NCBI GenBank assembly: GCA_964390375.1
Contig: CAYMIF010000003.1
Span: 1 to 63,474, forward strand
Direction: 5' to 3'
Length of the DNA: 63,474 bases
DNA from: an uncultured Methanosarcinales archaeon
GTDB taxonomy: Archaea; Nanobdellota; Nanobdellia; Woesearchaeales; DSVV01
Shown here: one piece after another, positions 24,001-63,393 of the stretch
How positions within the stretch are numbered: the first letter of the stretch is position 1
Layout: each line of letters begins with the position of its first letter
The notes under the pieces: generated by a model
Database searches by the model: none
The model's input: the letters and a program-made list of their open reading frames with translations, nothing else
Told to the model about the DNA's origin: nothing
Program-made: the position numbers and the translations under genes

Positions 24001-24607
24001 GGATCTCTTCCTCCTCTAATTTTTTTTCTTCTTCATTCTCGCTTCCTGCTTCTTCCTCTACTACTTCTTCTCCTCCACCCTCTCCGATCTTTTCTCCAGC
24101 ATCTGATTCAAGTTCATAATAGTCGTATTCCACTTCATGTATCCGAAGCACTGTCTCATTGTCCAGGATAGTGATCAGCTGTCCTTTTCCGACCAGCCCA
24201 AGCTCATTATCTGAAACCCCAACATCCAGGAATCGTCCTTCAGATGAATTGAGCACTAGATATTCTTCTCCGTCGAAGACAAGATAGGCTACAGCATTTC
24301 CGTCTCCCTTGACAGTCCCGCTCAGCCTGATTGCAGACACATTCACCTCTCCGAATGAAAGGATTGCCTCTCCTGAGCGGTCGAATGCAAACTGTCCGTC
24401 TTCCAAAACGACCTGGCCGGTTATTCCGCCCTGCATAAAAAAGATTCCTGGCCGAAGAATCAAAAGCAGTATGGCAAGCATGAGTACAGCATTCAGGATA
24501 ACAAGAGCATCGATATGCTTTTCCTTCCTGTGCCCAGAAGTAAAGCTCTCGCTCATTTCAGCCTTCAGCTTTTTCGCCTCATCCTTCTTCTGTTTAGTTC
24601 TTGCCAT
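1..24607 (-). CDS. Giant (>8,200 aa, 3'-partial) membrane-anchored surface protein: 9 LamG/concanavalin-like domains, parallel beta-helix regions, GLUG repeats, Ig-like linkers, 4 Gly-rich modules
   Basis: ATG at 24607 (MARTKQKKDEAKK...), with an in-frame stop just upstream at ~24670. The N-terminal TM helix ALVILNAVLMLAILLLIL is followed by GITGQVV. The same frame reads as coherent protein at spot checks near 24000, 21790, 16990, 10030, 5400 and 1. The ORF track lists no long terminated ORF in this frame, consistent with no stop inside the window. LamG C-terminal motifs (DDVMxFNRxL type) lie near 21140, 20190, 17160, 16250, 15360, 12340, 10310, 9410 and 8440. GLUG-like VGGxxG repeats lie at ~7250-8260. 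Confidence 0.9.
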   Translation of the reverse strand, partial: MARTKQKKDEAKKLKAEMSESFTSGHRKEKHIDALVILNAVLMLAILLLILRPGIFFMQGGITGQVVLEDGQFAFDRSGEAILSFGEVNVSAIRLSGTVKGDGNAVAYLVFDGEEYLVLNSSEGRFLDVGVSDNELGLVGKGQLITILDNETVLRIHEVEYDYYELESDAGEKIGEGGGEEVVEEEAGSENEEEKKLEEEEILNKTSADEGAGNQTKIDYEQDDDGSKDNVSWENDSIDNITAANMTDQISANLSNAWKDVNDSLGNLTSGESPALNLKTGNDTIENLSFENQTISNISLENASVDNLSFINVTTGNESIVNDTGIDDKTANESGINESILNESLKNESVVDEIVFNETAVNESYINETGINETAIDETIINESFVNQTFINETMLNKTIGNQSIINESMDNLSAENMSQSWPANMTNITGNGTLSNASYNLPPNGSVSDITMDINSSARINLSESFSDTEGEMLFYDVYSDGGLEAIIREDVMFIKSGIVAGTYNLSIAVIDSKNFILANFSVIVVGPEPELVLASTNYSSISEPDNVSVQAKDYNVIAGVPVRWSHTIKSSEAVDAMVVIPGDASEVKAYVMEGDEKKDAQEKIKAVSRKKRKTEAKTLAEESEEEIEGDRRGSVRSISLLKEEERKKQKGRDVVPRAAAAQDFEVKEVNISLNASLHVLEYETPGPSINVSEMSGRKKTVVVSAPDEMGFEKVLSYAELEKEAKAENIKLYHVEGQSRTEVEAWKHDLDSDGLVDYLEWIVPHLSEQRYEIIIDISKAELLDSNRSYLADVYDYVKARDFNYTEVSDGEYLRVVFEENLTSDKDITIYARSNGSASVDVLLADDDDILASFENVSEDGKYKVYLSGLSGTNDTFDLRVSGEIEFDHVIDPTLGASGEIKFESPTPDDGDSQNETNVEINVSVSTSDLDTMKFNWDGTNHTFYNGSLVLMYNFDNRSELGENDSLIVDLSASEQNGSFGFSPDADTGYTANGRHDGAWMFDGSNQYVSFDESYAGDTTGTICAWAMKTGTTDGAGCIFWGGDASDNSQQVSLCFLDGGSSIFGECRDGSDYLFLINLTESVPSNQWLHVCLRQNGVEPALFVDGEKKETVDWAGPVDKTAWFDDLTGVDTGSVGMKRDSSPNNPLDGKVDDLMVFDRPLSDAEINQLYMSNLMKYNSTQWYLYVNQTKNSTHGLDSGTYSYYGYAEDGSGNYNYTETRDITIDSSAPNISFITAPVNGSTQAGDDIFLNVSANDTSNLSVFIDFDNSLKLWMRMDEVNSTEPNATFYDSSIYNNSGKAQGNAVQVDGYIGKAVNFSGSNNIMINKSPSLNFTTQLTVAAWAYKNSWPGGHYKIVVKPCNDAANDNPWELYALDFKGSSPGYPCFLASDGYSTALGSWHHIGACTYETIPLREWHHYVGVFNETNITLYVDGRLEAGGGHNITLGLNDTNTYISGANFGYRYPAMVDDVMLFNRSLSAEEVAALYMNQSPKYLGVTFDNLSAGEHTYIAYAQDKEGNVADTGDENSSLSEEIVNYWTCNGATKTFNDSSCWSEGRVPLAGDDVVFNGSGTADCNVTNNTMPQDLGSFTVEGSYGAGTIRFLPLFAEGDWTGNGDGTQMWNVSGNITIINSTMEIWSDYLHNVTSSASEPGNISGEGHGQDWRSVSGDILIGSSAKLDGEKLGFPEREGPGYGSSQCGGTHGGVGHFTDSSSVWTLPYGNATAPTSIGSGGGGDDGGSAIKLHATDLLIVEGEIDMNGGSTAYGGAGGSIWLKADEIKGGGNLYAKGGTSWRTGGGGRIRLEYGTTMNLTGTISVAAGTTANTKNGPDAGTLTFTNNTWPGDWTLTDDIGLLGGNHSEGLIINVNGVFNTSGHNAWIYSDCFFNSSNTVTCYKTTTYGFGVWINATEEIVITSGSTMVGTGLGLPPTTVTTAAVSHGGKGGSSSDSIYDNETRPINPGKGATIYRSYKGGGSALRLQSAKEVAIEGTINMNAKDDDAYGQGSGGSIWIDAPNISGSGDLYSRGGDWGGMGASHQSGGGGGRIALTSSDTISFNGTILNRGGTGSDPGEGGTVYANASNEIYSIMNITTTGYNGGNITLNDTYLMLFGVYNATGENNDGVIRLEFTDCSSDLSSGTFLPDPLYSTNCPLGITINKPYNWTWYGNSSMEFNVSIDRAGSWCGMSVDSGANVSMEKFSSYMFNYTNSSMPDSGYNVVFSCNDTSDNWGYTGFDYFFVDTVNPNISIIEPDGRYVTADDYVVTNVSANDTANVSMVLDWDSSLVSWWRMDELNSTGDVVDYMGRNNGSVSGDAAQTDAGYFGRGFEFIDNGDSIVVTDNDVLDLNLSGTISLWAKNKGNCTSSNGGTPTETGNCFIIYKGSGQAATDYAYFLRHESDEDVVFYLGNGTTGRSASVGSIPRKVWHHYLVTWNSTNISLYIDGDFKDDSAMLNQIKNSNYDLKIGAGGHYTDGWDTHFNGTIDDVMIFNRTLSEDEVIALYANQSDKYLDLNITGLSSGNHTITAYAQDRAGNINITSRVAERDNTDPIVNVESPLNDSWYNSSMVVINVSSSEEGNGSLVLNLENSLVSWWTMDSLNNSGDPQDIMGRNNGTRHGNARAVPGKLGKGFEFDGSYDAINVSNDPSFNITEELTLSAWFYNTKSSYSSPDDFPKLIIRPYPSFSAPFELYALSFSGGGDTLRFLISNQTKTTRWIQQDGGNIETYRWYHAAATFNGTNMTLYIDGTYNQSTSFSPFEIGTNGSGVFIGSRGESRNDFQGIIDNVMIFNRSISADEVMSIYNATSYLYTANFSEGGHELEAYTVDLAGNLGETGPMDFYLDTVNPNISIIEPYSGYATTDDFVFVNVSANDTSNVSVFVDWDDSLVSWWRMDELNASGDVVDHMGRNNGSVSGDAAQTDAGYFGKGFYFDGDNDAVIFGSDDSLDSIANFTLSAWYKPARDGSSQEEVIFNKYEEKMLEWDWNMVGFQQAAFRGIVDFGAGTNAIAVSEAIPYSYTEESWNSVQVWYHVVMTYNTDTKNVSLYINGTETNYNSRTTGVGTEDYQNSEDLRMGTNVFGNFDTMGTIDDAMLFNRTLSAEEVAGLYANQSSRYLGANMTGLSDGTYTFTAYAQDRAGNVNRTDEQSAEIASGGFVNYWNCSGGTQNFTNASCWSQGRVPIATDNVIFNGSGTADCNVTNNTMPQDLGSFTVEGSYGAGTIYFLPLFAEGYYGGNYSGTQEWNVSGDIAVLNGTVEVWGDYLHNETSSAHGPGNLTAEGAGQGWNSISGNINIGEDAVLDGAGLGFGTRAGPGYDKSEGDSASHGGFGGERGSFTPDPYGNATGPTSLGSATDSREGGSAIKLTGTIINISGEIDMDGIAGSDSGAGGSVWLLADNITGNGFVHARGGATTIGYGAGAGGRIRFGYLKNLEFDGNISLASRTTGSEPGTHGTLTFTNNTWPKDMTLTGDIGLLGGDFGDGNVTNIRGNLDLNGYDIKIYGDCFGNSGQYKAFVCYNTTTEGSGVWLNVTGNITIPGGSTISGSETGFPSTKGAGPGSSSTGACHGGIGADNGCQPYGSLTSPVALGSGGQGTNGGAAIKLETDETVLINGSIYANSRTYGHTGSGGSIWVSGETVSGNGTISAIGANTNIGYNSGAGGRVAIWGDVVNFTGDINAYSRTSGSEPGDGGTVFINASSRIETSIEIDAYGSQKGGNITLNDSLLIISGDYNATGGSSDGVIRLEFSDCSSDFSAGTFNPDPFYSTNCPLIITINKPVNWSWYANSSMDFNVSVDRAGSWCGMSVSGGANVSMEKFSSYMFNYTNGSMPDDSYHVVFSCNDTSDNWGYTGFDYFFVDTVNPNISIIEPSSGYATTDDFVFVNVSANDSSNVSVFVDWDDDLLLWMRMDDVNSSGDPQDYTERHNGTRNGGWNPGPGGPNQVDSGYMGKAFEFDGDDDWIDLGNDTSLIPIYGTIAAWVYAYDYARGINVIFTGEFGGNSDRHPYFYVDTDGDAVLSISNGTTFDSDNFDTNLSTDTWIHLAVTWNGTDKVLYVNGSRIFNASQDLIPIARTANPPGDTSRIGDLSGSFTEEWNGKIDDVMIFNRSLEDNEISAIYAGQNSVYLGVNFSSLSEGNHTFTAYAQDRAGNVNATDSQDAELNFSEISECTELSMPNKLYYLTQDLYTNVTCIVISADNVTLEGRGYSITGNNTDCGEDFGIHAGGQVNVTIKDFENISYFGDYDACGDRDGAGIFLDGTNGSRIYNISAYENWKGVKLEQAYDNMIYDCNLSSNADDGAGIYYGENNTFDNITMDLNGNDGIYLSRTGNNTIIRSNFSSNVDEGVTFYLSPNNTVSDCRFVAHKKGIYIVASWNNTLQSNYINDSTDGIYMYSSGTGGNTSYNIVKDTEIENSARTDVYFWTDDPGSGNIENMFYNASFSSDYFNNSLDGGPSHYVRLWYYRAYVNDTEGNSLGGINVSGYNSTGDIQFSELTYPSGWTDSVSVIDYINNNGSIAYFSEYLINASNSSYDAQQHSYNITSSENIMSDVFTLDNAIPTADANSPSNNSYWNSSIIEFDVNASDYNNVSLFVDIDDSLVSWWRMDDLNATGGVVDYMGRTNGTPSGDSGQTEGMFGKGFSFDQDGDMINLTNTTALHVYNFTIAAWVWKNEAGTQGIFADDVRGLNGNWELFIYSGTEVGTMWYAPDSVALKSSTRLENETWYHIAGTYDGNNISIYINGQLENTTTTTNTVDYSGDRVPGIGAVNTNWGWGNGMNGTIDDVMLFNRSLSAEEIAGLYANSSSKHVIVNVSDFSEGEHHYTAYSQDLSGNVAESGRADFNVDTVNPNISFVDVTIGDGSMIGDDFVFVNVSANDTNNVSVFVDFDSSLVFWMRMDELNSSGGVVDYLNRNNGSAIGDAIQTDSGYFGRGFDFDGDGDSIDIGDVDFDEGLDGLTVSLWAYAKSNYSDSGSNQYFISRYGAGPDVFYMWWEANGDLEVDFMVWNGTSTGQGTHDVGIPESEFNKWHHLVGVYNGTNVLLYVDNELGTKSQGPLTGKTNTGATNPLRIGNGVDNRDFNGTIDDVMIFNRSLSSEEVAALYANQSRRYEGLNYTDLSDGSHSFTAYAQDRAGNVNTTETRDVEVDTINPDIAFVWPTNANDSTEGDIIVNVSANDTSNVSVVVDLDGTLVSWFRLENNVWDYMGNNNKSTNWLKGNAEYASGKLGRGVELDGANDTVQINSTNGLTNASGTIMFWFRRDGYHNINAGSTDRNYVFSHFCWPDCRGTRQITGSSVSDRVYIYFNATDDDMYAYMQQYSIADSYSEHIANVGLGEWHHVALTYTNDTANPINGSYEVYLDAEHMATGIFNKSMLKWWYTLDFGGWDGSHRDWNNPIWNDPGEEFNGTVDDILIFNRSLEPDEIAAVYANGSSRYAYIDYDDNLTQGNHTFKAYAQDLAGNLNWTETRVTKLVTSNITSCEELQEMNQDLTESYSLGANVDCTFDTQDPAGALYNGGAGFEPIGNNTHQFTGTLEGNGYSITGLAINRPSRTYVGLFGYTSSAVNISNVELLDVDITGNWSTGSLVGYNDGGTVKNCNVTGIVNCDGNMAGGLMGYNDGFVGNCSADVYVNNSDDTNDAGGLIGQSHDNGVVNDSYALGNVSGGFWNVGGFIGKDFGVTSRCYAAGNVTSSGHNVGGFDGKARRRAKIDCYTTGTVTSTIVSHDTTNYYIGGFAGYAESGTISHSYATGDVVGGNANYTAGFIGYVQGAYDGINYSFADNNVSGNNEVSGFIAWFDDTITQLDNVWWNNHSGNPDHCWWNETGDYDTECNAIEDDSDYFKGDVYPGSEPMANWSFYSVWSEVEDEYPQLTLQGAGGQFADNATYELFDVPPTTDFNEITDMYNVCNATVAINDTARIDWLSCIDARGNDFDSHVLLNHNYIKVNTSFLDESLNSSANITMYWVNLSNPAVLVDGEVCRECYMISNDANNVTFNVTHFSNYTLAENISGCRNFTQPGVYLLNDSIIDSGVPYCMNISADDVWLDCQGHSVDSDGTALDGIYVYRSAETDSNVTVVNCNVSDWGNHNIYIRNADNVTLINITTSGSGDGVETYNGDYMTAIGLTSIDNFNGIQIRYSNHVTINDSVIANNTYRDISISGTSCDHEINNVTGTDNKPIVYFDEAVSIDSWNNNFSQMILCNADGSSVNNVTMSHTDIENNDIMLRGVDNSNFTNIFVNDSYHGFAFFSDTNNRFINITVDSVQGSGLYVYFNSDSNYFENITSTNNEYGIRIVRSDLNNLSNSTIYGNSEAGIYFEDGSGLSGPNRFYNNLLNNSGTYGNIRFSDTIYNHTWNVSQQPGTRIYSSGTEIGGNYWTNSTGSFSDNCLDSDFNGFCDQALNLSTMTGCTEGVDCGNNTDFLPLSDDYNPVGVNYWICNGAVNRFDNDSCWSLGRVPVAGDDVVFNSSGTADCNVTNNTMPQELASFTVEGSYGAGTIYFLPLFAEGDWTGNNDGTQVWNVSGDISVLNGTMKIYGDFLHNVTSSATEPGNITGEGHGQEWQSMSGNITVGEDAKIDGKGLGFTTTEGPGGCNSNCGASHASDGYSGSSIFYGNATAPTSIGSGGSTSNGGSAIRLKTDDGFIEIEGEIDMNGNQDRSGAGGSIWLDAENITGSGTLKVQGGGSWASAGSGYIRFDFKTTDFNGEIYTRTMPGFDTSTFGVFTFTNNTWPLDWNLNGSIGLLGGDYGEGNITNIAGDFNVYEGSEIGIYADCHGNSGDYQAYVCYNNTADGRGVWINATGNISIAAGATLDGYMLGFPSLAGPGDGGTNTGGSYGGHGWNSGDELYGSLTYPISVGSGGENGPGGSAIRLETPGNIAVEGEILMHTYRSNWNSAAGAGGSILLIAGGNISGNGTLNANGGIGQEGGGGGRIAMHAESINFSGQINNIGGQDSDGNNDGSGGTVYINASNSIISSMNVSVFGYNGGNITLNDTLMTLSGTYLANGSNSGGEIRLEYSDCSSDFDDARFDPTPPTFVTRCGAFLVSECRDLTFANWEYQLTDNVSSAGTCFNVAAENVTLDCSGYEINYSYSSQGYGLNSTSFNTTVEDCRILQGRDAESSSYGLRILYSNFSRIYNNTIITLGGYSFGIYLEDSGDAFVSRNNITTNVAGSNGMRIRGELSGTNITYNTIHTLDRASMGVYFVEASNEISLHNNNITTDSCIPLGFYQSNPGYDYLNQTIPQTNLADGKPILYIFDNNSAEYTGVNFSEYGAVYMAYSNNITIEDSNFSTNGLRVYFITNSTFRNNNLTSGKPGANVLGLIKSDNNNITDNIIDSTSPTGWSSALEISESENNNVFNNNITTTGSGWSHGIYFTDQSHNNTIVNNSLDVDGSMSIGMYIRDDADDNVFDNNDMVVRGDSYGLRFYSGNSIEAIVNNSNITTLAAGTEAIYISSGSYNISIYNSIVNSVMGDDILTSSIDDASHLRLYNVTWNETNATINNGNITIYNYNYLDVNVTSDGLAVNGANVTAAFENRTWAFSVLTDASGFIDTQPLLEFYWNYTDKYDTSNYTINTTSAGREDVAYVNVSRDYIHNVSFSGGVNNWVCNGATRTFNDSSCWSLGHVPVAGENVVFNGSGTADCNVTNNTMPQELASFTVEASYGAGTIYFLPLFAEGYYGGNYSGTQEWNVSGDIAVMNGTVKVYGDARHQDFWGVMGNLTPYGQGQSWNSQGNVTIGQDSEIDGIGLGFMDNCCGGVCANAFAGASHGGKGGGPDQQIPDIYGNASGPTSLGMGGSSDSNVNYGGSAIKIRSDPGTIRIDGTVNMSSFTNNAARAGGSGGSIWLYGDNITGKGILAADGGSTVTSGAGGGGRIRVNFNSYGYTGIISAAGGKSDTVDSDGYSEYENGYLGRAGTFSFSSPLGTIDNLTYPGDWTVNGTIGLEANNYTILGDFVIPRGTKFGVGPRYNHTSPPNYGVSINATGNITIDGWIDGYRGGYANNYGPGAGSDLEGGAHAGRGGDNPASTYGSEQYPVTLGSGGGDSYGGGAVRLISAGHVEVNGTISMKGNNQSASSRGSSSGGSILLEAATYIRGYGNLSARTADVTGNDGGGSGGRIALHASDILFNGTIDNRGAISTTGESGGGGSVYINATTSAISSMDVTTTGLDGGNITIAETYLRLTGNYNATNFSGDPTNADIELWFTDCASDFDDAVFDPTPPTFVTGCGAFEVSECRNLT
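12954..13372. repeat. Near-identical intragenic repeat (mosaic of 15984-16113 and 17871-18196)
   Basis: 13047-13144 matches 17871-17968 with 1 mismatch in 98 nt, and homology continues to ~13372/18196. 12954-13083 matches 15984-16113 with only a few mismatches. Confidence 0.85.
23345..23764 (-). repeat. 28 x 15-nt degenerate tandem repeat encoding N-x-S/T-x-x pentapeptides
   Basis: Hand translation gives NDTIE NLSFE NQTIS NISLE NASVD NLSFI NVTTG NESIV NDTGI DDKTA NESGI NESIL NESLK NESVV DEIVF NETAV NESYI NETGI NETAI DETII NESFV NQTFI NETML NKTIG NQSII NESMD NLSAE NMSQS. Confidence 0.9.
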
Positions 24608-25136
24608 GTTTTCCTCTTTTCTTGCACGCGCGGCTATAGCAGGTCCACACGGTCCTTTGGTCTCTGTTCATGCATTCGCCGATCTCAGAATATCGAAGGC
24701 CGGCTTCTTCTTTGAGGTATACGACGCATATTTCCAATACCCCGAGATTTTTGTTCCCGAAAATCTCTGTAGGGAGGAAATATTCGCCGCCGCTCACCCG
24801 GATCCTTCTGTGTTGTTTGGATGCGGCCTTGTGGTAGACCGTCCAGATGAGCTTGTTGTCGCGAAAGAGGATGTCAGCGATCTCCCGGAAAGGAAGATCG
24901 CGGTTCTCCCGGAGGTACTTGACAATGCACTCCAACGTGCCAAGTTTGTTGTCAGAAAAGATTGAGACCGGGATTTGAAGGGTCTCCTCATCCTCTTTCT
25001 GGATATGGGAGATGTCTCTTCTGATCTCGAATATCTCGCTTTCAAGCTTCAGAAGTGAATTTTGCAGCAGTTCAAGCCTTTGAGAACTAGATTTATGTCT
25101 ATTTTTCCCTCTCCCTATACCCTTCTTTGTGCGCAC
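24594..25136 (-). CDS. Tandem helix-turn-helix DNA-binding protein
   Basis: Two similar units: LGTLECIVKYLRENRDLPFREIADILFRDNKLIWTVYHKA and LGVLEICVVYLKEEAGLRYSEIGECMNRDQRTVWTCYSRA. It overlaps the giant gene start by 14 nt. The start codon (GTG) is uncertain. Confidence 0.8.
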   Translation of the reverse strand: MRTKKGIGRGKNRHKSSSQRLELLQNSLLKLESEIFEIRRDISHIQKEDEETLQIPVSIFSDNKLGTLECIVKYLRENRDLPFREIADILFRDNKLIWTVYHKAASKQHRRIRVSGGEYFLPTEIFGNKNLGVLEICVVYLKEEAGLRYSEIGECMNRDQRTVWTCYSRACKKRGKHGKN

Positions 25137-25170
25137 TTTTCTGACTAAAAAACGTTTTTTACTAATTATG

Positions 25171-25397
25171 TAAGTAATGACTATTTAAAGCTTTCGTTTT
25201 TTTAGACGATAATTAGAGAGGGGCAGTTTCAAATTATCTTACCAAATATGAAAATAAACATACAGATTCAAATCAAATAAGTAAAAAACAAAACCAAGTA
25301 AGTATAATAATTATTAATTTAATATCAAATAAGTATTTAAGAGAAAAAAATAATATTAAATAAGTAAAAAATGCATTAATAATCAACTAAGTAAGTA
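25171..25397. promoter_or_regulatory. AT-rich upstream region with phased TAAGTA hexamers
   Basis: TAAGTA starts at 25171, 25278, 25299, 25330, 25361 and 25392 (plus an overlapping copy at 25388). Spacings are 107, 21, 31, 31, 31. Confidence 0.45.
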
Positions 25398-25502
25398 TTA
25401 AAATCAAGAAGGCTCAAGCTAGGTTCAGATGACAAAAAATCAAGCAAAAAATAGCATCAGAAAAAGAAGATAAACAAGATGGCTGTCGCTTTTTGTTTTA
25501 TC

Positions 25503-25625
25503 GGCTATTATGAAATCCTATCCTACTTCACCGATGTTTCACATCGGTTCCGCCTGGCCACGAGAATATTTACTAATGTAAATATTCTCTCTCATGGCAC
25601 AGACGGCTAGGATTTCATAATAGCC
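25503..25625 (-). mobile_element. MITE-like element (structured element copy 1)
   Basis: Perfect 18-bp terminal inverted repeats GGCTATTATGAAATCCTA (25503-25520, 25608-25625). Perfect 9-bp flanking direct repeat TGTTTTATC (25494-25502, 25626-25634). Internal hairpins, no ORF. Confidence 0.8.
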
Positions 25626-25692
25626 TGTTTTATCATTAGATTTAAAAAGTCATCAACAGAAATAGTCTCAAAAGAAAAAACAGGAAAAAATT

Positions 25693-25962
25693 TTACTCTT
25701 CTTCGTCCTGGTTATAGTTTGGCACAGCAGACTTCGATATTATCATGATGTCTCCGATAGCCTTGACCAGCTGGTGAGGGACGATAACTCCTTTTGCCGA
25801 CCCCAGGATCCTGTTCAGGTATGAGTTTTTCGTAGATTTCACTCTCCACCCGAACACTTTGTTTGCTGTGAGTATTGACTCCTCGACATCCCCGAAGTAT
25901 TCACCTGAATCTGTGAATACTCTCATGTCATATGATTCAGTGATCTTTTTCATATTAAGCAT
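25693..25962 (-). CDS. PRC-barrel domain protein
   Basis: MLNMKKITESYDMRVFTDSGEYFGDVEE...IVPHQLVKAIGDIMII is the archaeal PRC-barrel pattern. Start moved from 26070 to the ATG at 25962. Confidence 0.8.
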   Translation of the reverse strand: MLNMKKITESYDMRVFTDSGEYFGDVEESILTANKVFGWRVKSTKNSYLNRILGSAKGVIVPHQLVKAIGDIMIISKSAVPNYNQDEEE

Positions 25963-26030
25963 AGTGAATCCCTCCGATATTGAAGATAAGTAAATTTTTA
26001 TAAGTATATAAATTTTTCCGTTGAAACAGC

Positions 26031-26780
26031 ATGTCACAGATAAAACTGGTAGGAACATCACACATAGCAAAGCAGTCAGTAAAGGAGATCAAGGCAGCGA
26101 TAGCCTCATTCAGGCCAGACATCGTCGCAGTAGAGCTGGATCAAAGAAGGCTCTACGGTCTGCTCACTCAGGAAAGGAAGCAGAAATACTCTTTGTCTAT
26201 GGCAAAGGACATCGGTCTGAGCGGATACATCTTTGCAGTCATAGGCTCTTTTCTCTCGCGAAAGCTAGGGAAATCTGTCGGTGTTATGCCTGGCGAGGAT
26301 ATGCTGACTGCAGTCAGGATAGCAAAAGAGCACAAGCTCGAAATTGCCCTGATTGACCAGGATATCGGCATAACCCTCAGGAACTTCTCAAAGGGCCTGA
26401 GCTGGAAAGAGAGGTTTCAGTTCATAAAAGACATTTTCAAGGGCATATTTTTCAAAAAAAGCCAGATGAAAAAATACGGCCTGAAGAAGATGGATCTGTC
26501 TAAAGTTCCGACAGGAAAGGTGATCCAGAAGCTTTTAGGCTCGATGAAGATAGACTATCCAAACATCTACAAGGCCCTGGTAGAGGACAGAAACCATTAC
26601 ATGGCAAAAAAGCTCAACTTTTTGCGCGGGAAATTCCCGGAGAAGAAGATTCTGGCGATTGTAGGTGCTGGTCACATAGATGGTATGCAAAATCTGATAG
26701 CACAAGGCCCAAAAGAAACCTTCAGCTATTCATACACTTTCGGCGGGACAACATATCCTCAGATAAACATCCTGGATTAG
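26031..26780 (+). CDS. TraB/GumN family protein
   Basis: IKLVGTSHI, VAVELD, LIDQDI, LVEDRNHYMA and AIVGAGHIDG are TraB-family motifs. Confidence 0.88.
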   Translation: MSQIKLVGTSHIAKQSVKEIKAAIASFRPDIVAVELDQRRLYGLLTQERKQKYSLSMAKDIGLSGYIFAVIGSFLSRKLGKSVGVMPGEDMLTAVRIAKEHKLEIALIDQDIGITLRNFSKGLSWKERFQFIKDIFKGIFFKKSQMKKYGLKKMDLSKVPTGKVIQKLLGSMKIDYPNIYKALVEDRNHYMAKKLNFLRGKFPEKKILAIVGAGHIDGMQNLIAQGPKETFSYSYTFGGTTYPQINILD

Positions 26781-26848: not shown

Positions 26849-28099
26849 TCAAAGCTTGTCAGCGATCAGTATCGCGCAGCTGTTTGATGATTTTACCTTT
26901 GAGTCCATGCCGATAAGAAACTTGATCTTGCTTTTCTCAGCCTGGTTCACAAGGGAAGAATCGATCACTCCGTCGAAGACTATTGCATATATCCCTGTGT
27001 TGAGTGACTGGATTGTGGTCTGCAGTTCGCTGTTAGGTACCTTTCCTAGGATATTCATCTTGTCGTCCAGGATATATGCGCCCCTTGTTCCGATTAGGTC
27101 TTCGAGCATGTCTTTTATGGTCTTCTTTTCCTGTCCAGTTAGTCTTGGAAGCTGCGAACTGCTGCTTCCTCCTCTTGAATTGCTGCCTCTCTTGTCATAG
27201 TTTTGCCTTTGGTGATGCTGTGGTTTGCCTGACCTTCTTTGGCTGTTTCCGCCTGAATCATCTCTTGTTTGAAGATCATGTTTTGCCTGTTCAGTCGAGA
27301 TCTTGCCTCTGAGAGCCTTGTGTATCTCCTTTTTGGTCAGCTCCTCGACCTCTTTTCCGTCAGGTGCTTTTGCCACAAAATCGATCTCTGCTCGGTCAGT
27401 CATCTCCTTGACAATAAGGTTGCCGCCGCGATCACCGTCCACAAAGACAGTCACGATCTTTCTCTTTGACAGTTCTACTACTGTCTCTGGAACATTCGTC
27501 CCGTTGATTGCAATAGCATTCTTAAACCCGTGCTTGAGCAGATTTATGACATCTGCTCTACCTTCGACTACGATGATATCGTCTGAATCCTCGACATTCG
27601 GTCCTGCAGGAAGCCTTTCATTTCCGTATTCCTGTATTTCCATGATACGCACAGAATAAGCTACTTCGTCTGCAAGTTCTTGTGAATCCGGCATCGATGT
27701 GTCCATGAGTTTTCTAAGAAGGTCCTTTGCCCGGTCTATGACAAAAGTCCTCTTGCTGACCCTGACATCCTCGATCTTCTCGACCCTGATCTTTGCGCTG
27801 CAAGGTCCGATTCTCTGGATGATCTCAAGCGCAGCAGCGACAATCACTGTCTCTGCCTTGTCCAGGCTTGAGGGGATCACGATCTCGCCGAGTGTCTTTC
27901 CTGATCTTGTCTCGACCTTGACCTCTATCCTTCCGATTCTTCCTGATCTTTGAAGCTCGCGAAGTTCCAGGTCAGCTCCGAGTAGTCCTTCTGTCTGTCC
28001 GAATATAGCACCTATCACATCTGGTCTGTCCACTACTCCGCCGATATTGATTGATGCATGGATGATGTATTTTGCTGATACTGGACTGATCTTTCCCAT
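26849..28099 (-). CDS. dnaG: Archaeal DnaG-type primase (exosome-associated)
   Basis: [34 protein letters not shown], Toprim [10 protein letters not shown] and FVDGDRGG. Confidence 0.95.
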
Positions 28100-28581
28100 T
28101 TTCTCATTCCTCCTGTAAGTCTTATGATGATAGAATCGAAAAAACTTTTCATTCCATCATTCTAGAAGAAGTCTGTTTATGGCTAGGTCCCTATATGTCT
28201 GCGTCCGAAAATTCGCAAAATTACCTTTTATTTGGTTGGATCTGATGAACATGAACAACACTTCTTCTGTTTTCTACTGTTTTTAAAGAATAAGCAATCC
28301 TTTCAGGCTTCCAAAAATAGGCAAATTCCACTGACAAAAAAGCTCATTTTTGTCTTATTTTTCCCATTTGGAAGCATATTGTTGATATCTGATGAAAATA
28401 AAGGTATTGCTTACCCTGTTTTTATTCTTTATGATTATAAAGGGTTTGTTGCCCGAAACACTAACTCCCAGGCTCATTGCTTGCATTTAGCGACTGCTCC
28501 ACTGAGTACTCTCGTGACGGGCTGCAGTACAAAAGGGTATCTCGATATCACAGCACAAAACCAAGGTTTCAGCTCAAACAA

Positions 28582-28811
28582 GGACCCATTTCTGTACTTT
28601 TGGCGTACTTATAAGTAACGCAGATATGTTTTTAAAGTTTCGTTTTTTGTCCAGAATTCTAACTATCATTCTTTTTTTTTTAAGTACGCGGAAACTCGTA
28701 GAGTTCAACGTACCTCGGTGCTCTGCGGACGAACCCGCAGGGACCCATTTCTGTACTTTTGGCGTACTTATAAGTAACGCAGATATGTTTTTAAAGTTTC
28801 GTTTTTTGTCC
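28582..28811. repeat. 71-bp direct repeat, two identical copies (28582-28652, 28741-28811)
   Basis: GGACCCATTTCTGTACTTTTGGCGTACTTATAAGTAACGCAGATATGTTTTTAAAGTTTCGTTTTTTGTCC occurs twice, separated by 88 nt. Confidence 0.9.
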
Positions 28812-53109: not shown

Positions 53110-53249
53110 TCTTCATCCAAAAAATGTGTCTGTGCCAAGGGAGGAAATATTTATGAAATACTGAGAACAGAATGTTCTCCTGATTGAGAATTTTTAATTC
53201 TCAATAAATATTTTCGTGGCCAGGCGGAGTAGTATTTTTTGGATGAAGA
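53110..53249 (+). ncRNA. Structured element copy 2 (RNA or ssDNA)
   Basis: Outer stem TCTTCATCCAAAAAAT/ATTTTTTGGATGAAGA, core GTCTGTGCCA...GTGGCCAGGCGGAGTA, and internal hairpins GAGAACA-GAA-TGTTCTC and ATTGAGAATT-TTT-AATTCTCAAT. Confidence 0.65.
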
Positions 53250-54191: not shown

Positions 54192-54500
54192 TCACCACTG
54201 CCCATGCGATCCGTGCGACCCGTGTGATCCATGCGATCCGTGCGACCCATGGCTGGAATGCGACCCGTGGCTTCCATGATGTGAATGCGAGCCATTCAGG
54301 TTTCCCGGAGGAAATCCAGAGAATATAGATACATTGTTTGAATGCAGATATGCAGCCTCCACATCCTTGTTCATGATTAGCGATGACATAGCTGCACCTG
54401 AAAGTATTGCGCCGATTGTAAGAAGTGATTGTTTTGATATCTTTCCATCATCTCCGAGAAGGAATGCGTTTATCCTCTTTTTTAGTCTTGGGCACACCAT
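54192..54500 (-). CDS. hxsA: His-Xaa-Ser repeat precursor peptide (HxsA-type)
   Basis: The C-terminus is SHSH-HGS-HGS-HSS-HGS-HGS-HGS-HGS-HGS-HGQW (8 consecutive HxS). The N-terminus is a basic leader followed by a hydrophobic helix. Confidence 0.92.
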   Translation of the reverse strand: MVCPRLKKRINAFLLGDDGKISKQSLLTIGAILSGAAMSSLIMNKDVEAAYLHSNNVSIFSGFPPGNLNGSHSHHGSHGSHSSHGSHGSHGSHGSHGSHGQW

Positions 54501-54653
54501 ATCACTCCATCAGAGGATTTATATATATAAATATTTTTTGTTTGGTAGGCGCAGTCCCAAAAGTCATGGATTAGTATATGAATTTTTTTCCAATTTACTT
54601 TTTAATTATATGATTGGAAAAAATTCGACCAGAAAAACTCCATTTTTCTGAGC

Positions 54654-54757
54654 ACTGTTAAATCCGTCTGCGTCACGAGAGAGAATATTTATGAAGTAAA
54701 TATTCTCGAGACCAGACGAAGTTTTCACGAAGTGAAAACGTAGTAGGATTTAATAGT
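54654..54757 (+). ncRNA. Structured element copy 3 (RNA or ssDNA)
   Basis: Outer stem ACTGTTAAATCC/GGATTTAATAGT, core GTCTGCGTCACG...CGAGACCAGACGAA, hairpin GTTTTCAC-GAA-GTGAAAAC, then GTAGTA. Confidence 0.65.
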
Positions 54758-54796
54758 ATACAGAAAAGGTACTTTCGGGACAGCGCCGATTGGTAG

Positions 54797-54983
54797 GGCT
54801 AATATGAAATCCTAGCCGTCTGTGCCATGAGAATATATATCTTTAGGCAATATTCTCAGTTGGGCTAAGCCAACCATTTATGGTTGGCGCACGCCCTACA
54901 TGGCTGGTCTGCGGGCCAGAGCGTAGGGCCAGGCGAAACCGATGTGAAACATCGGTGAAGTAGGATAGGAGTTCATATTAGCC
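54797..54983 (+). mobile_element. Structured element copy 4 (MITE-like, same ends as copy 1)
   Basis: TIRs GGCTAATATGAAATCCTA / TAGGAGTTCATATTAGCC (17/18 complementary). It has the same core and ACCGATGTGAAACATCGGTGAAGTAGGA as copy 1, plus extra internal hairpins. Flanks GATTGGTAG/TTTTGTTAG match only 6/9. Confidence 0.7.
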
Positions 54984-55210
54984 TTTTGTTAGACTGTATT
55001 GAAAACATCTAATCCATAGGATTTGATGATGCCTGGGCCAGATTAATGCTAGCGAGGCTGATGTGAAATTTAGTTCTTGCCATGGACCGATTCCTGTGAA
55101 TTTCCCTGAGGGCCGGGAATCGGCTGAGTGAGGCTGCCTGTCACTATCAAATCCTTAAACGAGGATGATTTCAACACAGTCGTTGGCTTATAACAGAGAG
55201 GACTATCAGA

Positions 55211-63293: not shown

Positions 63294-63393
63294 GCCCCTG
63301 TAGCATAGTAGCCATTGCGGCAGACTCGTAATCAGCGGCTTGCGCCAACGATAAGAAATCTGCAGGTCGAGGGTGCAACTCCCTCCAGGGGCT
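63294..63393 (+). tRNA. tRNA-Thr(CGU) with 27-nt intron (63331-63357)
   Basis: Acceptor stem GCCCCTG/CAGGGGC, anticodon stem GCAGA/TCTGC, loop CT-CGT-A, T-arm GAGGG-TGCAACT-CCCTC. The intron sits at the canonical 37/38 position. Confidence 0.88.

What the first reader, a model, noticed from the sequence alone, without database searches (positions are those of the whole stretch)
25494..25634. 123-bp MITE-like element with 18-bp TIRs and a perfect 9-bp target-site duplication
GGCTATTATGAAATCCTA inverted ends are flanked directly by TGTTTTATC on both sides, the signature of DDE transposition. The 18-bp/9-bp geometry and the GGCT....TGAA start resemble IS5-family IS903 ends (GGCTTTGTTGAATAAATC, 9-bp TSD). 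A second copy with the same ends lies at 54797-54983. No transposase is in the window.
Basis: partly seen in the sequence, partly recalled or inferred. Interest (0 to 1): 0.7.

Follow-up and report, generated by a model that had tools for sequence, protein, structure and literature searches.

The report
Small non-autonomous transposon in a DPANN archaeon
This is a genuine 123-bp miniature transposon (MITE), present in tens of copies in an uncultured Woesearchaeota archaeon and moved by an unnamed IS5-family insertion sequence with the same ends; it is an ordinary kind of element, but this family has not been described.

Summary
A 123-bp element (25503-25625) has perfect 18-bp terminal inverted repeats and sits between two copies of TGTTTTATC.

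It is a real MITE:
- The same 18-bp ends bound 123-289-bp elements in many DPANN (Woesearchaeota/Nanoarchaeota) genomes assembled from metagenomes (MAGs). 13 of the 28 end pairs scored there, window included, have perfect 9-bp target duplications.
- The same ends also bound 1018-1023-bp autonomous insertion sequences with 9-bp duplications. These encode a 305-313-aa DDE transposase that best fits the NCBIfam IS5 model that also holds IS903.
- In the source microbial-mat metagenomes, depth over the element is 30-100 times that of its flanks. Other contigs stop matching exactly at 25503 and 25625/6.
- A relative with 90% nucleotide identity lacks the element. The window minus 132 bp aligns collinearly with it.

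Copy 2 (54797-54983) is an older, longer variant. It lies in a cluster of decayed repeats.

The window has no transposase. Diverged contigs collinear with the insertion sequence do occur in the same samples.

The IS903 comparison holds for geometry only. The transposase is 23% identical to IS903's and 33% identical to haloarchaeal IS5 members.

Verdict: a new member of a known kind, of modest interest.

The parts
25494..25502 (.). Left copy of the 9-bp target-site duplication, TGTTTTATC.
   Evidence: It is identical to 25626-25634 and directly abuts the left inverted repeat.
25503..25520 (+). Left 18-bp terminal inverted repeat, GGCTATTATGAAATCCTA. Inferred to be the transposase binding and cleavage site.
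   Evidence: 0 mismatches. Other contigs in the source metagenome stop matching exactly at 25503 (section 7). It has one mismatch to the repeat of the autonomous insertion sequence at L048.
25521..25607 (.). Non-coding core made of two hairpins: an 8-bp stem at 25530-25548 and a long imperfect stem at about 25550-25606.
   Evidence: Folding gives z = -8.6 for the core as RNA and z = -11.1 for the whole element as DNA. Only chance ORFs of 43 and 23 aa are present. No Rfam family matches.
25608..25625 (-). Right 18-bp terminal inverted repeat, the exact reverse complement of the left one.
   Evidence: Other contigs diverge at 25625/25626.
25626..25634 (.). Right copy of the 9-bp target-site duplication, TGTTTTATC.
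54797..54983 (-). Copy 2, a 187-bp variant of the same subfamily in the opposite orientation. Its inverted repeats lie at 54797-54814 and 54966-54983, and it has about 64 extra internal bases. Its flanks match at 6 of 9 positions, which suggests an older insertion.
   Evidence: (I1, I2). Depth in run X1 reaches about 2000 against a baseline of 7.9.
54650..54759 (-). Copy 3, a decayed relative with both terminal repeats degenerate. The long hairpin is retained. The short hairpin has a different 8-bp stem around the same GAA loop.
   Evidence: (I3). Intact relatives exist in runs X1 and X3: the loose end TATGAAATCCTATG precedes 54665.
53186..53228 (-). A 43-bp fragment of the core, 84% identical to 25549-25589. 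It lies in the intergenic region between two radical-SAM-like genes.
55016..55033 (-). A lone degenerate end resembling the terminal repeat (ATAGGATTTGATGATGCC), inside another repeated segment at 54999-55095.
   Evidence: Depth is 50-215 against 7.9 in run X1.

Best explanation
The element at 25503-25625 is a miniature inverted-repeat transposable element (MITE). It is a non-coding, hairpin-rich passenger that carries only the 18-bp ends recognised by the DDE transposase of a roughly 1.02-kb IS5-family insertion sequence. That insertion sequence is widespread in Woesearchaeota/Nanoarchaeota (DPANN) archaea.

Inferred mechanism: a transposase supplied in trans binds the two GGCTAWTATGAAAYCCTM ends and cleaves at the terminal GGC. 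It joins the 3' ends to target DNA with a 9-bp stagger, and repair of the gaps creates the TGTTTTATC duplication.

The host is an uncultured Woesearchaeota archaeon from a microbial mat, where the subfamily has reached tens of copies.

Copy 1 landed in a long AT-rich spacer. It lies about 58 bp past the stop codon and T-runs of the PRC-barrel gene, and about 370 bp upstream of the next gene. It is probably neutral.

Shown: the anatomy, the family-wide 9-bp duplications, autonomous insertion sequences with the same ends and an intact DDE/YREK transposase, the multicopy status, and absence from a close relative.

Inferred: which transposase moves it, whether that transposase is in the same genome, and whether the element is still active.
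For: - Anatomy: perfect 18-bp inverted repeats and a perfect 9-bp duplication, far beyond chance.
- Family-wide duplications: elements of 123-289 bp with the same ends in DPANN MAGs, with 13 of the 28 end pairs scored (window included) showing 9/9 flank matches and 6 more showing 8/9.
- Autonomous partners: L048:5119-6141 is 1023 bp with duplication CTTAATTTA. L063 is 1019 bp with ACTAAAATA. L068 is 1018 bp with CTTAAAAAC.
- Transposase identity: it matches PF01609 (1.4e-8) and NF033579 'IS5 family transposase' at 134-156 bits, far ahead of every other model.
- Catalytic residues: D115, D191, E249 and Y242/R245/K256 are invariant in an alignment with IS903-type and haloarchaeal IS5 transposases.
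- Constraint on the ends: the last four codons and the TAG stop of the transposase lie inside one terminal repeat. This helps explain why the 18-mer is so conserved.
- Copy number: depth over the element is 252-892 against 7.5-9.9 in run X1, and 102-350 against 4.3-4.8 in run X2. 76 and 50 contigs were laid on the region. Their flanks diverge exactly at 25503 and 25625/6.
- Absence from a relative: contig L074 is 90% identical over 8.4 kb and has no terminal repeat. The window minus the element and one duplication copy aligns collinearly with it.
- Transposase source nearby: contigs in X1 and X2 are collinear with the insertion sequence, and one starts exactly at the terminal repeat.
Against: - No transposase lies in the window, and none was shown to be in the same genome. 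The contigs in the same samples match the insertion sequence only in patches of under 90% identity and could belong to other organisms.
- No identical empty allele was found. An exact search of JGI metagenomes gave 0 hits, and contigs from the source runs show no skipping joints. Only contigs were available for those runs, not reads.
- The relative's site is diverged, with the 9-mer not conserved. Insertion in the window's lineage is therefore inferred from collinearity.
- No other copy of this exact subfamily could be read together with its flanks, so its own duplication record rests on copy 1.
Confidence: 0.9

Rival explanations
1. It is a chance palindrome, such as a terminator-like hairpin, that happens to be flanked by a short direct repeat. 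On this view it is not a mobile element.
For: The element folds into one long hairpin. It sits downstream of a gene in AT-rich spacer DNA, where short repeats are common.
Against: Only 0.01 matches to the 18-mer are expected in the window. The same ends with 9-bp duplications recur in many genomes. Depth is 30-100 times that of the flanks, with sharp boundaries at the ends of the repeats. A relative lacks the element.
Confidence: 0.01
2. It is a REP/BIME-like palindromic repeat spread by a RAYT-type tyrosine (HUH) transposase, or a structured RNA gene family. On this view it is not a DDE-mobilised MITE.
For: The core is strongly structured (z = -8.6). The short hairpin in copy 3 has a different stem sequence around the same loop. 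A preprint notes a REP-associated tyrosine transposase in a Pacearchaeales genome (10.64898/2026.05.13.725050).
Against: REP elements have no terminal repeats shared with a DDE insertion sequence and make no fixed-length target duplications. Here the ends equal those of a DDE insertion sequence, and 9-bp duplications are the rule. No Rfam family matches. No RNA run holds the stretch.
Confidence: 0.04
3. It is a fossil: a once-mobile deletion derivative whose transposase source has been lost from this lineage, so it can no longer move.
For: The window holds no transposase. Copies 2 and 3 and the fragments are decayed. Only diverged contigs resembling the insertion sequence were seen in the same samples.
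Against: Copy 1 has perfect repeats and a perfect duplication and is absent from a 90%-identical relative. The very high copy number, with many contigs at 99% identity or more, points to a recent burst (45 of 76 contigs are at least 99% alike).
Confidence: 0.2

Closest known systems
IS903 (IS5 family, IS903 group) and its E. coli relatives
   Same: Both have 18-bp terminal inverted repeats that start with GGCT and carry TGAA at positions 9-12. Both make a 9-bp target duplication. Both are about 1.0 kb long (1057 bp against 1018-1023 bp) and have a single transposase of about 305 aa. The DDE triad and the Y-x2-R-x3-E-x6-K motif are shared, and both transposases have NF033579 as their best NCBIfam model.
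   Different: The transposases are only 23-25% identical, and pairwise BLASTP gives E = 0.019 over 84 aa. The inverted repeats share 9 of 18 positions. The hosts are DPANN archaea, not enterobacteria. In the archaeal elements the transposase stop codon lies inside the terminal repeat. In the IS903-type copy the ORF ends about 56 bp before the element's end.
Haloarchaeal IS5-family elements (ISHma13 and ISHla2 families)
   Same: These are the closest annotated transposases: about 32-33% identity over roughly 88-95% of the length, with E values down to 1e-26 to 6e-27. They share the NCBIfam model NF033579. Both groups are archaeal.
   Different: Their transposase is shorter (273 aa) and lacks the C-terminal tail that the DPANN clade encodes inside its terminal repeat. 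Their ends and duplications could not be defined here. No shared 18-mer was seen.
Prokaryotic MITEs in general, including the high MITE density reported for a Woesearchaea genome
   Same: The element is short, non-coding, palindromic and intergenic, is present in many copies, and shares its terminal repeats with an insertion sequence. A survey of 183,232 genomes lists a Woesearchaea genome at 105 conserved MITEs per Mb, among the highest values in archaea (PMC11602168).
   Different: That survey gives densities, not this family. No paper in the library names the family, its 18-mer or its transposase.

Membership tests
MITE (non-autonomous derivative of a DDE transposon) | Short (tens to a few hundred bp) with no coding capacity. 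| tested here: met
   The element is 123 bp. Only chance ORFs of 43 and 23 aa overlap it.
MITE (non-autonomous derivative of a DDE transposon) | Terminal inverted repeats. | tested here: met
   The 18-bp repeats match at 18 of 18 positions.
MITE (non-autonomous derivative of a DDE transposon) | Target-site duplication of a fixed length typical of the family. | tested here: met
   Copy 1 matches at 9 of 9 positions. 13 of the 28 end pairs scored (window included) match at 9 of 9. The autonomous insertion sequences also match at 9 of 9.
MITE (non-autonomous derivative of a DDE transposon) | Many copies at unrelated loci. | tested here: met
   The window holds two full copies, one decayed copy and fragments. 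76 and 50 contigs carry it in two runs, with unlike flanks and 30-100 times the flanking depth.
MITE (non-autonomous derivative of a DDE transposon) | Ends match those of an autonomous element that supplies transposase in trans in the same cell. | tested here: inconclusive
   Matching autonomous insertion sequences exist in other DPANN MAGs. Collinear contigs exist in the same samples. Presence in the same genome was not shown.
MITE (non-autonomous derivative of a DDE transposon) | An empty site exists in a relative or in the population. | tested here: met
   The 90%-identical contig L074 lacks the element and is collinear with the window minus 132 bp. An exact empty allele was not found.
IS5 family (for the autonomous partner) | A DDE_Tnp_1 transposase with the DDE triad and the YREK motif. 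| tested here: met
   PF01609 matches at 1.4e-8. D115, D191, E249, Y242, R245 and K256 are invariant in alignment A4.
IS5 family (for the autonomous partner) | Passes a curated IS5 family model. | tested here: inconclusive
   Against NF033579 (cutoff 140 bits), P0029 scores 155.5 and passes. P0025 scores 139.1 and L048 scores 133.7, both just below. The next best model scores 68 bits or less.
IS903 group of the IS5 family | A 9-bp duplication, ends starting with GGC, and a length of about 950-1150 bp. These are the ISfinder group criteria as I recall them. | tested here: met
   for the archaeal insertion sequences. for an E. coli IS903-type copy: 1057 bp, 18-bp repeats, duplication GGTTAACTA.
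IS903 group of the IS5 family | The transposase groups with IS903-group transposases rather than with other IS5 groups. | tested here: inconclusive
   It is 23-25% identical to the IS903-type protein and 33% identical to ISHma13/ISHla2. No ISfinder reference set or phylogeny was available.
REP/BIME elements mobilised by RAYT transposases | Short palindromes without DDE-type terminal repeats and without target duplications. | tested here: not met
   Terminal repeats identical to the ends of a DDE insertion sequence, together with 9-bp duplications.

The most novel reading that the evidence does not exclude
This MITE and insertion-sequence clade could be an unnamed subgroup of the IS5 family seen so far only in DPANN archaea. 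It may have expanded to roughly 50-100 or more copies in a genome of about 1 Mb.

Its cores may not be junk. They could be selected structured modules that act as regulatory DNA or as RNA. Two observations point that way.
- The short hairpin keeps its loop and stem length while the stem sequence differs completely between copies 1/2 and copy 3.
- Sister subfamilies of about 165 bp in other Woesearchaeota share a central motif, GCGTTCCCGTAGGGAGC..CCCCTCGCGAC.
Probability: 0.12. Interest if true: 0.55.

Novelty: new member of a known kind. Interest (0 to 1): 0.3.

Why it matters
The practical value is for annotation and assembly.
- The 18-mer GGCTAWTATGAAAYCCTM marks a repeat family that breaks Woesearchaeota assemblies. 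Many matches sit at contig ends, and the insertion sequence usually assembles as a contig of about 1.02-1.3 kb on its own.
- Masking the family, or scaffolding across it, would improve DPANN MAGs.

Biologically, it documents an active-looking pairing of an insertion sequence and a MITE in very small, host-dependent archaeal genomes. Repeat expansions are not the default expectation there, although a survey has already reported high MITE density in a Woesearchaea genome.

It adds no new transposition mechanism.

Tried and rejected
- **Exact empty-site search.** A 38-mer for the empty site and a 25-mer from the subfamily core both gave 0 hits in JGI metagenomes.
- **Viral contigs.** The terminal repeat gave 2 single-ended hits, which is consistent with chance. 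Two core patterns gave 0 hits. No link to a virus was found.
- **Sharing with Methanosarcinales.** Many hits carry the record title 'uncultured Methanosarcinales archaeon'. The TFB protein of one such MAG (CAZXTQ) is 87-92% identical to named Woesearchaeota TFBs. Loci from another (CAZKVI) have 30-32% GC. I therefore rejected the idea of transfer between symbiont and host. The other MAGs with that label were not checked.
- **Bacterial hits.** The 18 bacterial hits in the genome scan, one per contig, are at the chance level. About 70 chance matches are expected in 596 Gb for this pattern, and none has a second end.
- **Rfam.** Nothing matched the elements.
- **RNA runs.** None holds the stretch.
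- **Ends of the haloarchaeal relatives.** I tried to define the ends and duplications of ISHma13 and ISHla2 to settle the subgroup. No clear terminal repeats were found.
- **Origin of the core.** Beyond the 18-bp ends I saw no convincing similarity between the MITE core and the interior of the insertion sequence.
- **Archaeal IS review.** My guessed id (PMC1847376) for the Filée et al. 2007 review of archaeal insertion sequences was not held.

Full report
**1. The observation.**

Reading the window at the stated coordinates confirms every detail of copy 1:
- TGTTTTATC at 25494-25502.
- GGCTATTATGAAATCCTA at 25503-25520.
- Its exact reverse complement at 25608-25625.
- TGTTTTATC again at 25626-25634.

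The 18-mer, allowing 3 mismatches, occurs four times in 63 kb against 0.01 expected. All four are the ends of the two copies.

Copy 2 (54797-54983) is real but older-looking:
- It is 187 bp long and in the opposite orientation.
- Its own two terminal repeats differ from each other at one position.
- Its flanks match at 6 of 9 positions.
- It has about 64 extra internal bases.

Both junctions of copy 1 also appear in independently assembled contigs from two public runs. One of those contigs starts inside the element, as happens at repeats.

**2. More copies in the window.**

Self-comparison found further pieces:
- A third, decayed copy at about 54650-54759, directly upstream of copy 2.
- A 43-bp core fragment at 53186-53228.
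- A lone degenerate end at 55016-55033.

The whole spacer from 54513 to 55095 is repetitive in the source metagenome, with depth 50-2000 against 7.9. Copy 2 therefore sits in a pile of old insertions.

**3. The host.**

- The neighbouring genes are archaeal: a DnaG primase at 26849-28099 (-), a TraB-family gene at 26031-26780 (+) and a PRC-barrel gene at 25693-26070 (-).
- The DnaG protein has one 98%-identical relative in a JGI metagenome. Its next relatives, at about 70% identity, are named Candidatus Woesearchaeota or Nanoarchaeota.
- The runs that hold the window are microbial-mat metagenomes.
- The host is therefore an uncultured DPANN archaeon of the Woesearchaeota.

**4. The family beyond the window.**

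- About 20 are hits with no second end, 18 in bacteria and 2 in other archaea. That is the chance level for this pattern in 596 Gb.
- The rest fall in a few archaeal MAGs with several hits each. Downstream of the 18-mer they form distinct sequence families.

Pairing plus-strand and minus-strand ends gave 28 candidate pairs, the window's two copies included. The elements are 123-289 bp long. 13 of the 28 pairs have 9/9 identical flanks and 6 more have 8/9. The 9-bp duplication is thus a property of the family, not a coincidence at one site.

Many of these MAGs are titled 'uncultured Methanosarcinales archaeon'.
- The TFB protein of one (CAZXTQ) is 87-92% identical to named Woesearchaeota TFBs.
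- Loci from another (CAZKVI) have 30-32% GC.

I treat those labels as wrong or unverified and make no claim of sharing across phyla.

**5. The autonomous partner.**

One pair of ends encloses 1023 bp (L048:5119-6141, a Nanoarchaeota MAG) with the perfect duplication CTTAATTTA and a single ORF. The protein has these properties:
- It matches Pfam DDE_Tnp_1 at 1.4e-8.
- It matches NCBIfam NF033579 'IS5 family transposase' at 133.7 bits against a cutoff of 140. The next best model scores 39 bits.
- It has at least 624 relatives of about 305 aa. Most lie on contigs of 1.0-1.3 kb, which is the signature of a repeat assembled on its own.

Two of those relatives were traced to their contigs:
- P0025 occurs in Tara Oceans marine metagenomes at several different sites. 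Its element is 1019 bp, with duplication ACTAAAATA at L063.
- P0029 lies in an element of 1018 bp with duplication CTTAAAAAC.
- P0029 passes the NF033579 cutoff at 155.5 bits, and P0025 scores 139.1.

In an alignment with an E. coli IS903-type protein and two haloarchaeal IS5 transposases, D115, D191 and E249 are invariant. So are Y242, R245 and K256, which form the Y-x2-R-x3-E-x6-K motif.

The last four codons (R-I/V-S-Y) and the TAG stop of the transposase lie inside one terminal repeat. That repeat is therefore constrained both as a binding site and as coding sequence. This plausibly explains why the 18-mer is nearly identical across subfamilies whose cores are unrelated.

In two MAGs the ends of the insertion sequence sit at contig ends:
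- L037 carries the first 28 codons of the transposase next to the terminal repeat.
- The L012, L015 and L025 contig ends (CAZXTQ), read by eye in the output, encode its C-terminus next to the repeat.

**6. Comparison with IS903.**

I fetched an E. coli IS903-type copy and read it directly.
- It is 1057 bp long with 18-bp repeats GGCTTTGTTGAATAAATC.
- Its duplication is GGTTAACTA, 9 bp.
- Its transposase is 307 aa and scores 352 bits on NF033579.

The geometry is the same, and so is the best family model. The relationship is distant, however:
- The proteins are 23-25% identical, and pairwise BLASTP gives E = 0.019.
- The inverted repeats share 9 of 18 positions: GGCT at 1-4, TGAA at 9-12 and T at 17.

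The nearest annotated transposases are haloarchaeal IS5 members of the ISHma13 and ISHla2 families. They are 32-33% identical and also fall under NF033579.

Assignment to the IS5 family is therefore well supported. Assignment to a subgroup is not settled.

**7. Copy number and boundaries in the source community.**

I laid the contigs of the two mat runs on 24900-26200.
- Depth is 7.5-9.9 (X1) and 4.3-4.8 (X2) on the flanks.
- Depth is 252-892 (X1) and 102-350 (X2) over the element.
- 76 and 50 contigs were laid, and 45 of the 76 in X1 are at least 99% alike.
- Their unmatched parts begin exactly at 25503 and 25625/25626 and disagree with each other.

This means many loci share precisely this unit. 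Many of the contigs have the same depth as the window's genome, so tens of copies in this organism is a fair estimate. Part of the signal could come from related populations.

Both the 123-bp form and the longer form exist at other loci (loose ends at 25559 and 25590).

**8. The empty site.**

The 98%-identical DnaG protein led to a 19-kb JGI contig, L074.
- L074 matches the window at 90% nucleotide identity from 34087 down to 25673.
- It matches again, at 79%, from 25429 down to 21774.
- The unaligned gap is 113 bp in L074 and 243 bp in the window. The 130-bp difference is close to the 132 bp of the element plus one copy of the duplication.

Removing 25503-25634 from the window makes the two spacers align end to end without a large gap. 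L074 has no match to the terminal repeat even with 3 mismatches.

The site itself has diverged and the 9-mer is not conserved. This is an orthologous empty site in a relative, not an identical empty allele. No empty allele was seen in the contigs of the source runs or in JGI metagenomes.

**9. Is a transposase available?**

- The window has none.
- I laid the L048 insertion sequence on the mat runs at 80% likeness. X1 has a 1449-bp contig, and X2 a 777-bp contig that starts exactly at the terminal repeat. Both match the insertion sequence collinearly in patches.
- Relatives of the insertion sequence therefore live in the same community.
- Whether one is in the same genome is unknown.

**10. 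Structure and likely effect.**

- The whole element folds into one long hairpin (z = -11 as DNA).
- The core alone forms a long stem and a short stem (z = -8.6 as RNA).
- Sister subfamilies are likewise near-palindromes.
- Copy 3 keeps the short hairpin's 8-bp stem length and GAA loop but with a different stem sequence. With one comparison this is suggestive only.
- No Rfam family matches, and no RNA run holds the stretch.

Copy 1 lies about 58 bp past the stop codon and T-runs of the PRC-barrel gene. It is about 370 bp upstream of the next start codon and more than 300 bp from that gene's TATA-like box. I expect no strong effect on expression, but this is inference.

**11. Verdict.**

The element is an ordinary MITE of an IS5-family insertion sequence with IS903-like geometry.

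What is new is the family itself. It is abundant, it was seen here only in DPANN archaea, and it is not named in any paper I could find. A published survey had already noted a very high MITE density in a Woesearchaea genome (PMC11602168).

It is a new member of a known kind, of modest interest.

Noticed in passing
window 1-24607 (- strand): One open reading frame of at least 8,202 aa starts at 24607 and runs off the start of the window. It is full of internal repeats of roughly 900 bp to 3 kb (families D1-D13). It is a giant repetitive protein of the kind seen in DPANN genomes. The relative L074 carries the orthologue.
   Followed up: partly
window 63294-63393 (+): Rfam reports a tRNA of 100 nt (50.4 bits) that ARAGORN did not call. 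It is probably an intron-bearing archaeal tRNA.
   Followed up: no
window 25267-25411: A motif of about 17 nt (TTACTTATTTGAT-like on the - strand) is repeated at spacings of 52-58 bp in the AT-rich spacer next to the MITE (family D17). The stretch is conserved in the relative L074. It could be a set of protein-binding sites.
   Followed up: no
window 28579-28652 and 28738-28811: Two 74-nt direct repeats, 99% identical and 159 bp apart, lie just beyond the 5' end of the dnaG gene (family D14). Both are also present in L074. Their function is unknown.
   Followed up: no
window 54192-54500 (- strand): A small protein of 102 aa ends in a His-Gly-Ser repeat (HGSHGSHSSHGSHGSHG...) encoded by a 9-bp tandem repeat (family D16). 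It lies between two radical-SAM-like genes.
   Followed up: no
L008, L009, L017, L018, L032, L038, L042, L046, L047, L054, L056 (centres of MITEs of about 165-290 bp): Several MITE subfamilies in other Woesearchaeota/Nanoarchaeota MAGs share the terminal repeats and also a central motif, GCGTTCCCGTAGGGAGC..CCCCTCGCGAC, at about position 70. The motif is absent from the window. It may reflect common descent or a selected module.
   Followed up: partly
L003, L004 and other loci from MAG CAZXTQ (title 'uncultured Methanosarcinales archaeon'): The record's taxonomic label looks wrong. Its TFB protein is 87-92% identical to Woesearchaeota TFBs. Other MAGs with the same label (CAZKVI, CAZDUE, CAZNUS, CAYIZT) were not checked. 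Loci from CAZKVI have only 30-32% GC.
   Followed up: partly
L060-L067 (Tara Oceans marine metagenome contigs): An identical 305-aa transposase (P0025) sits at several different sites, and the same left or right flanks recur in different combinations. This suggests either chimeric assembly across the repeat or a very recently active insertion sequence in marine DPANN.
   Followed up: no
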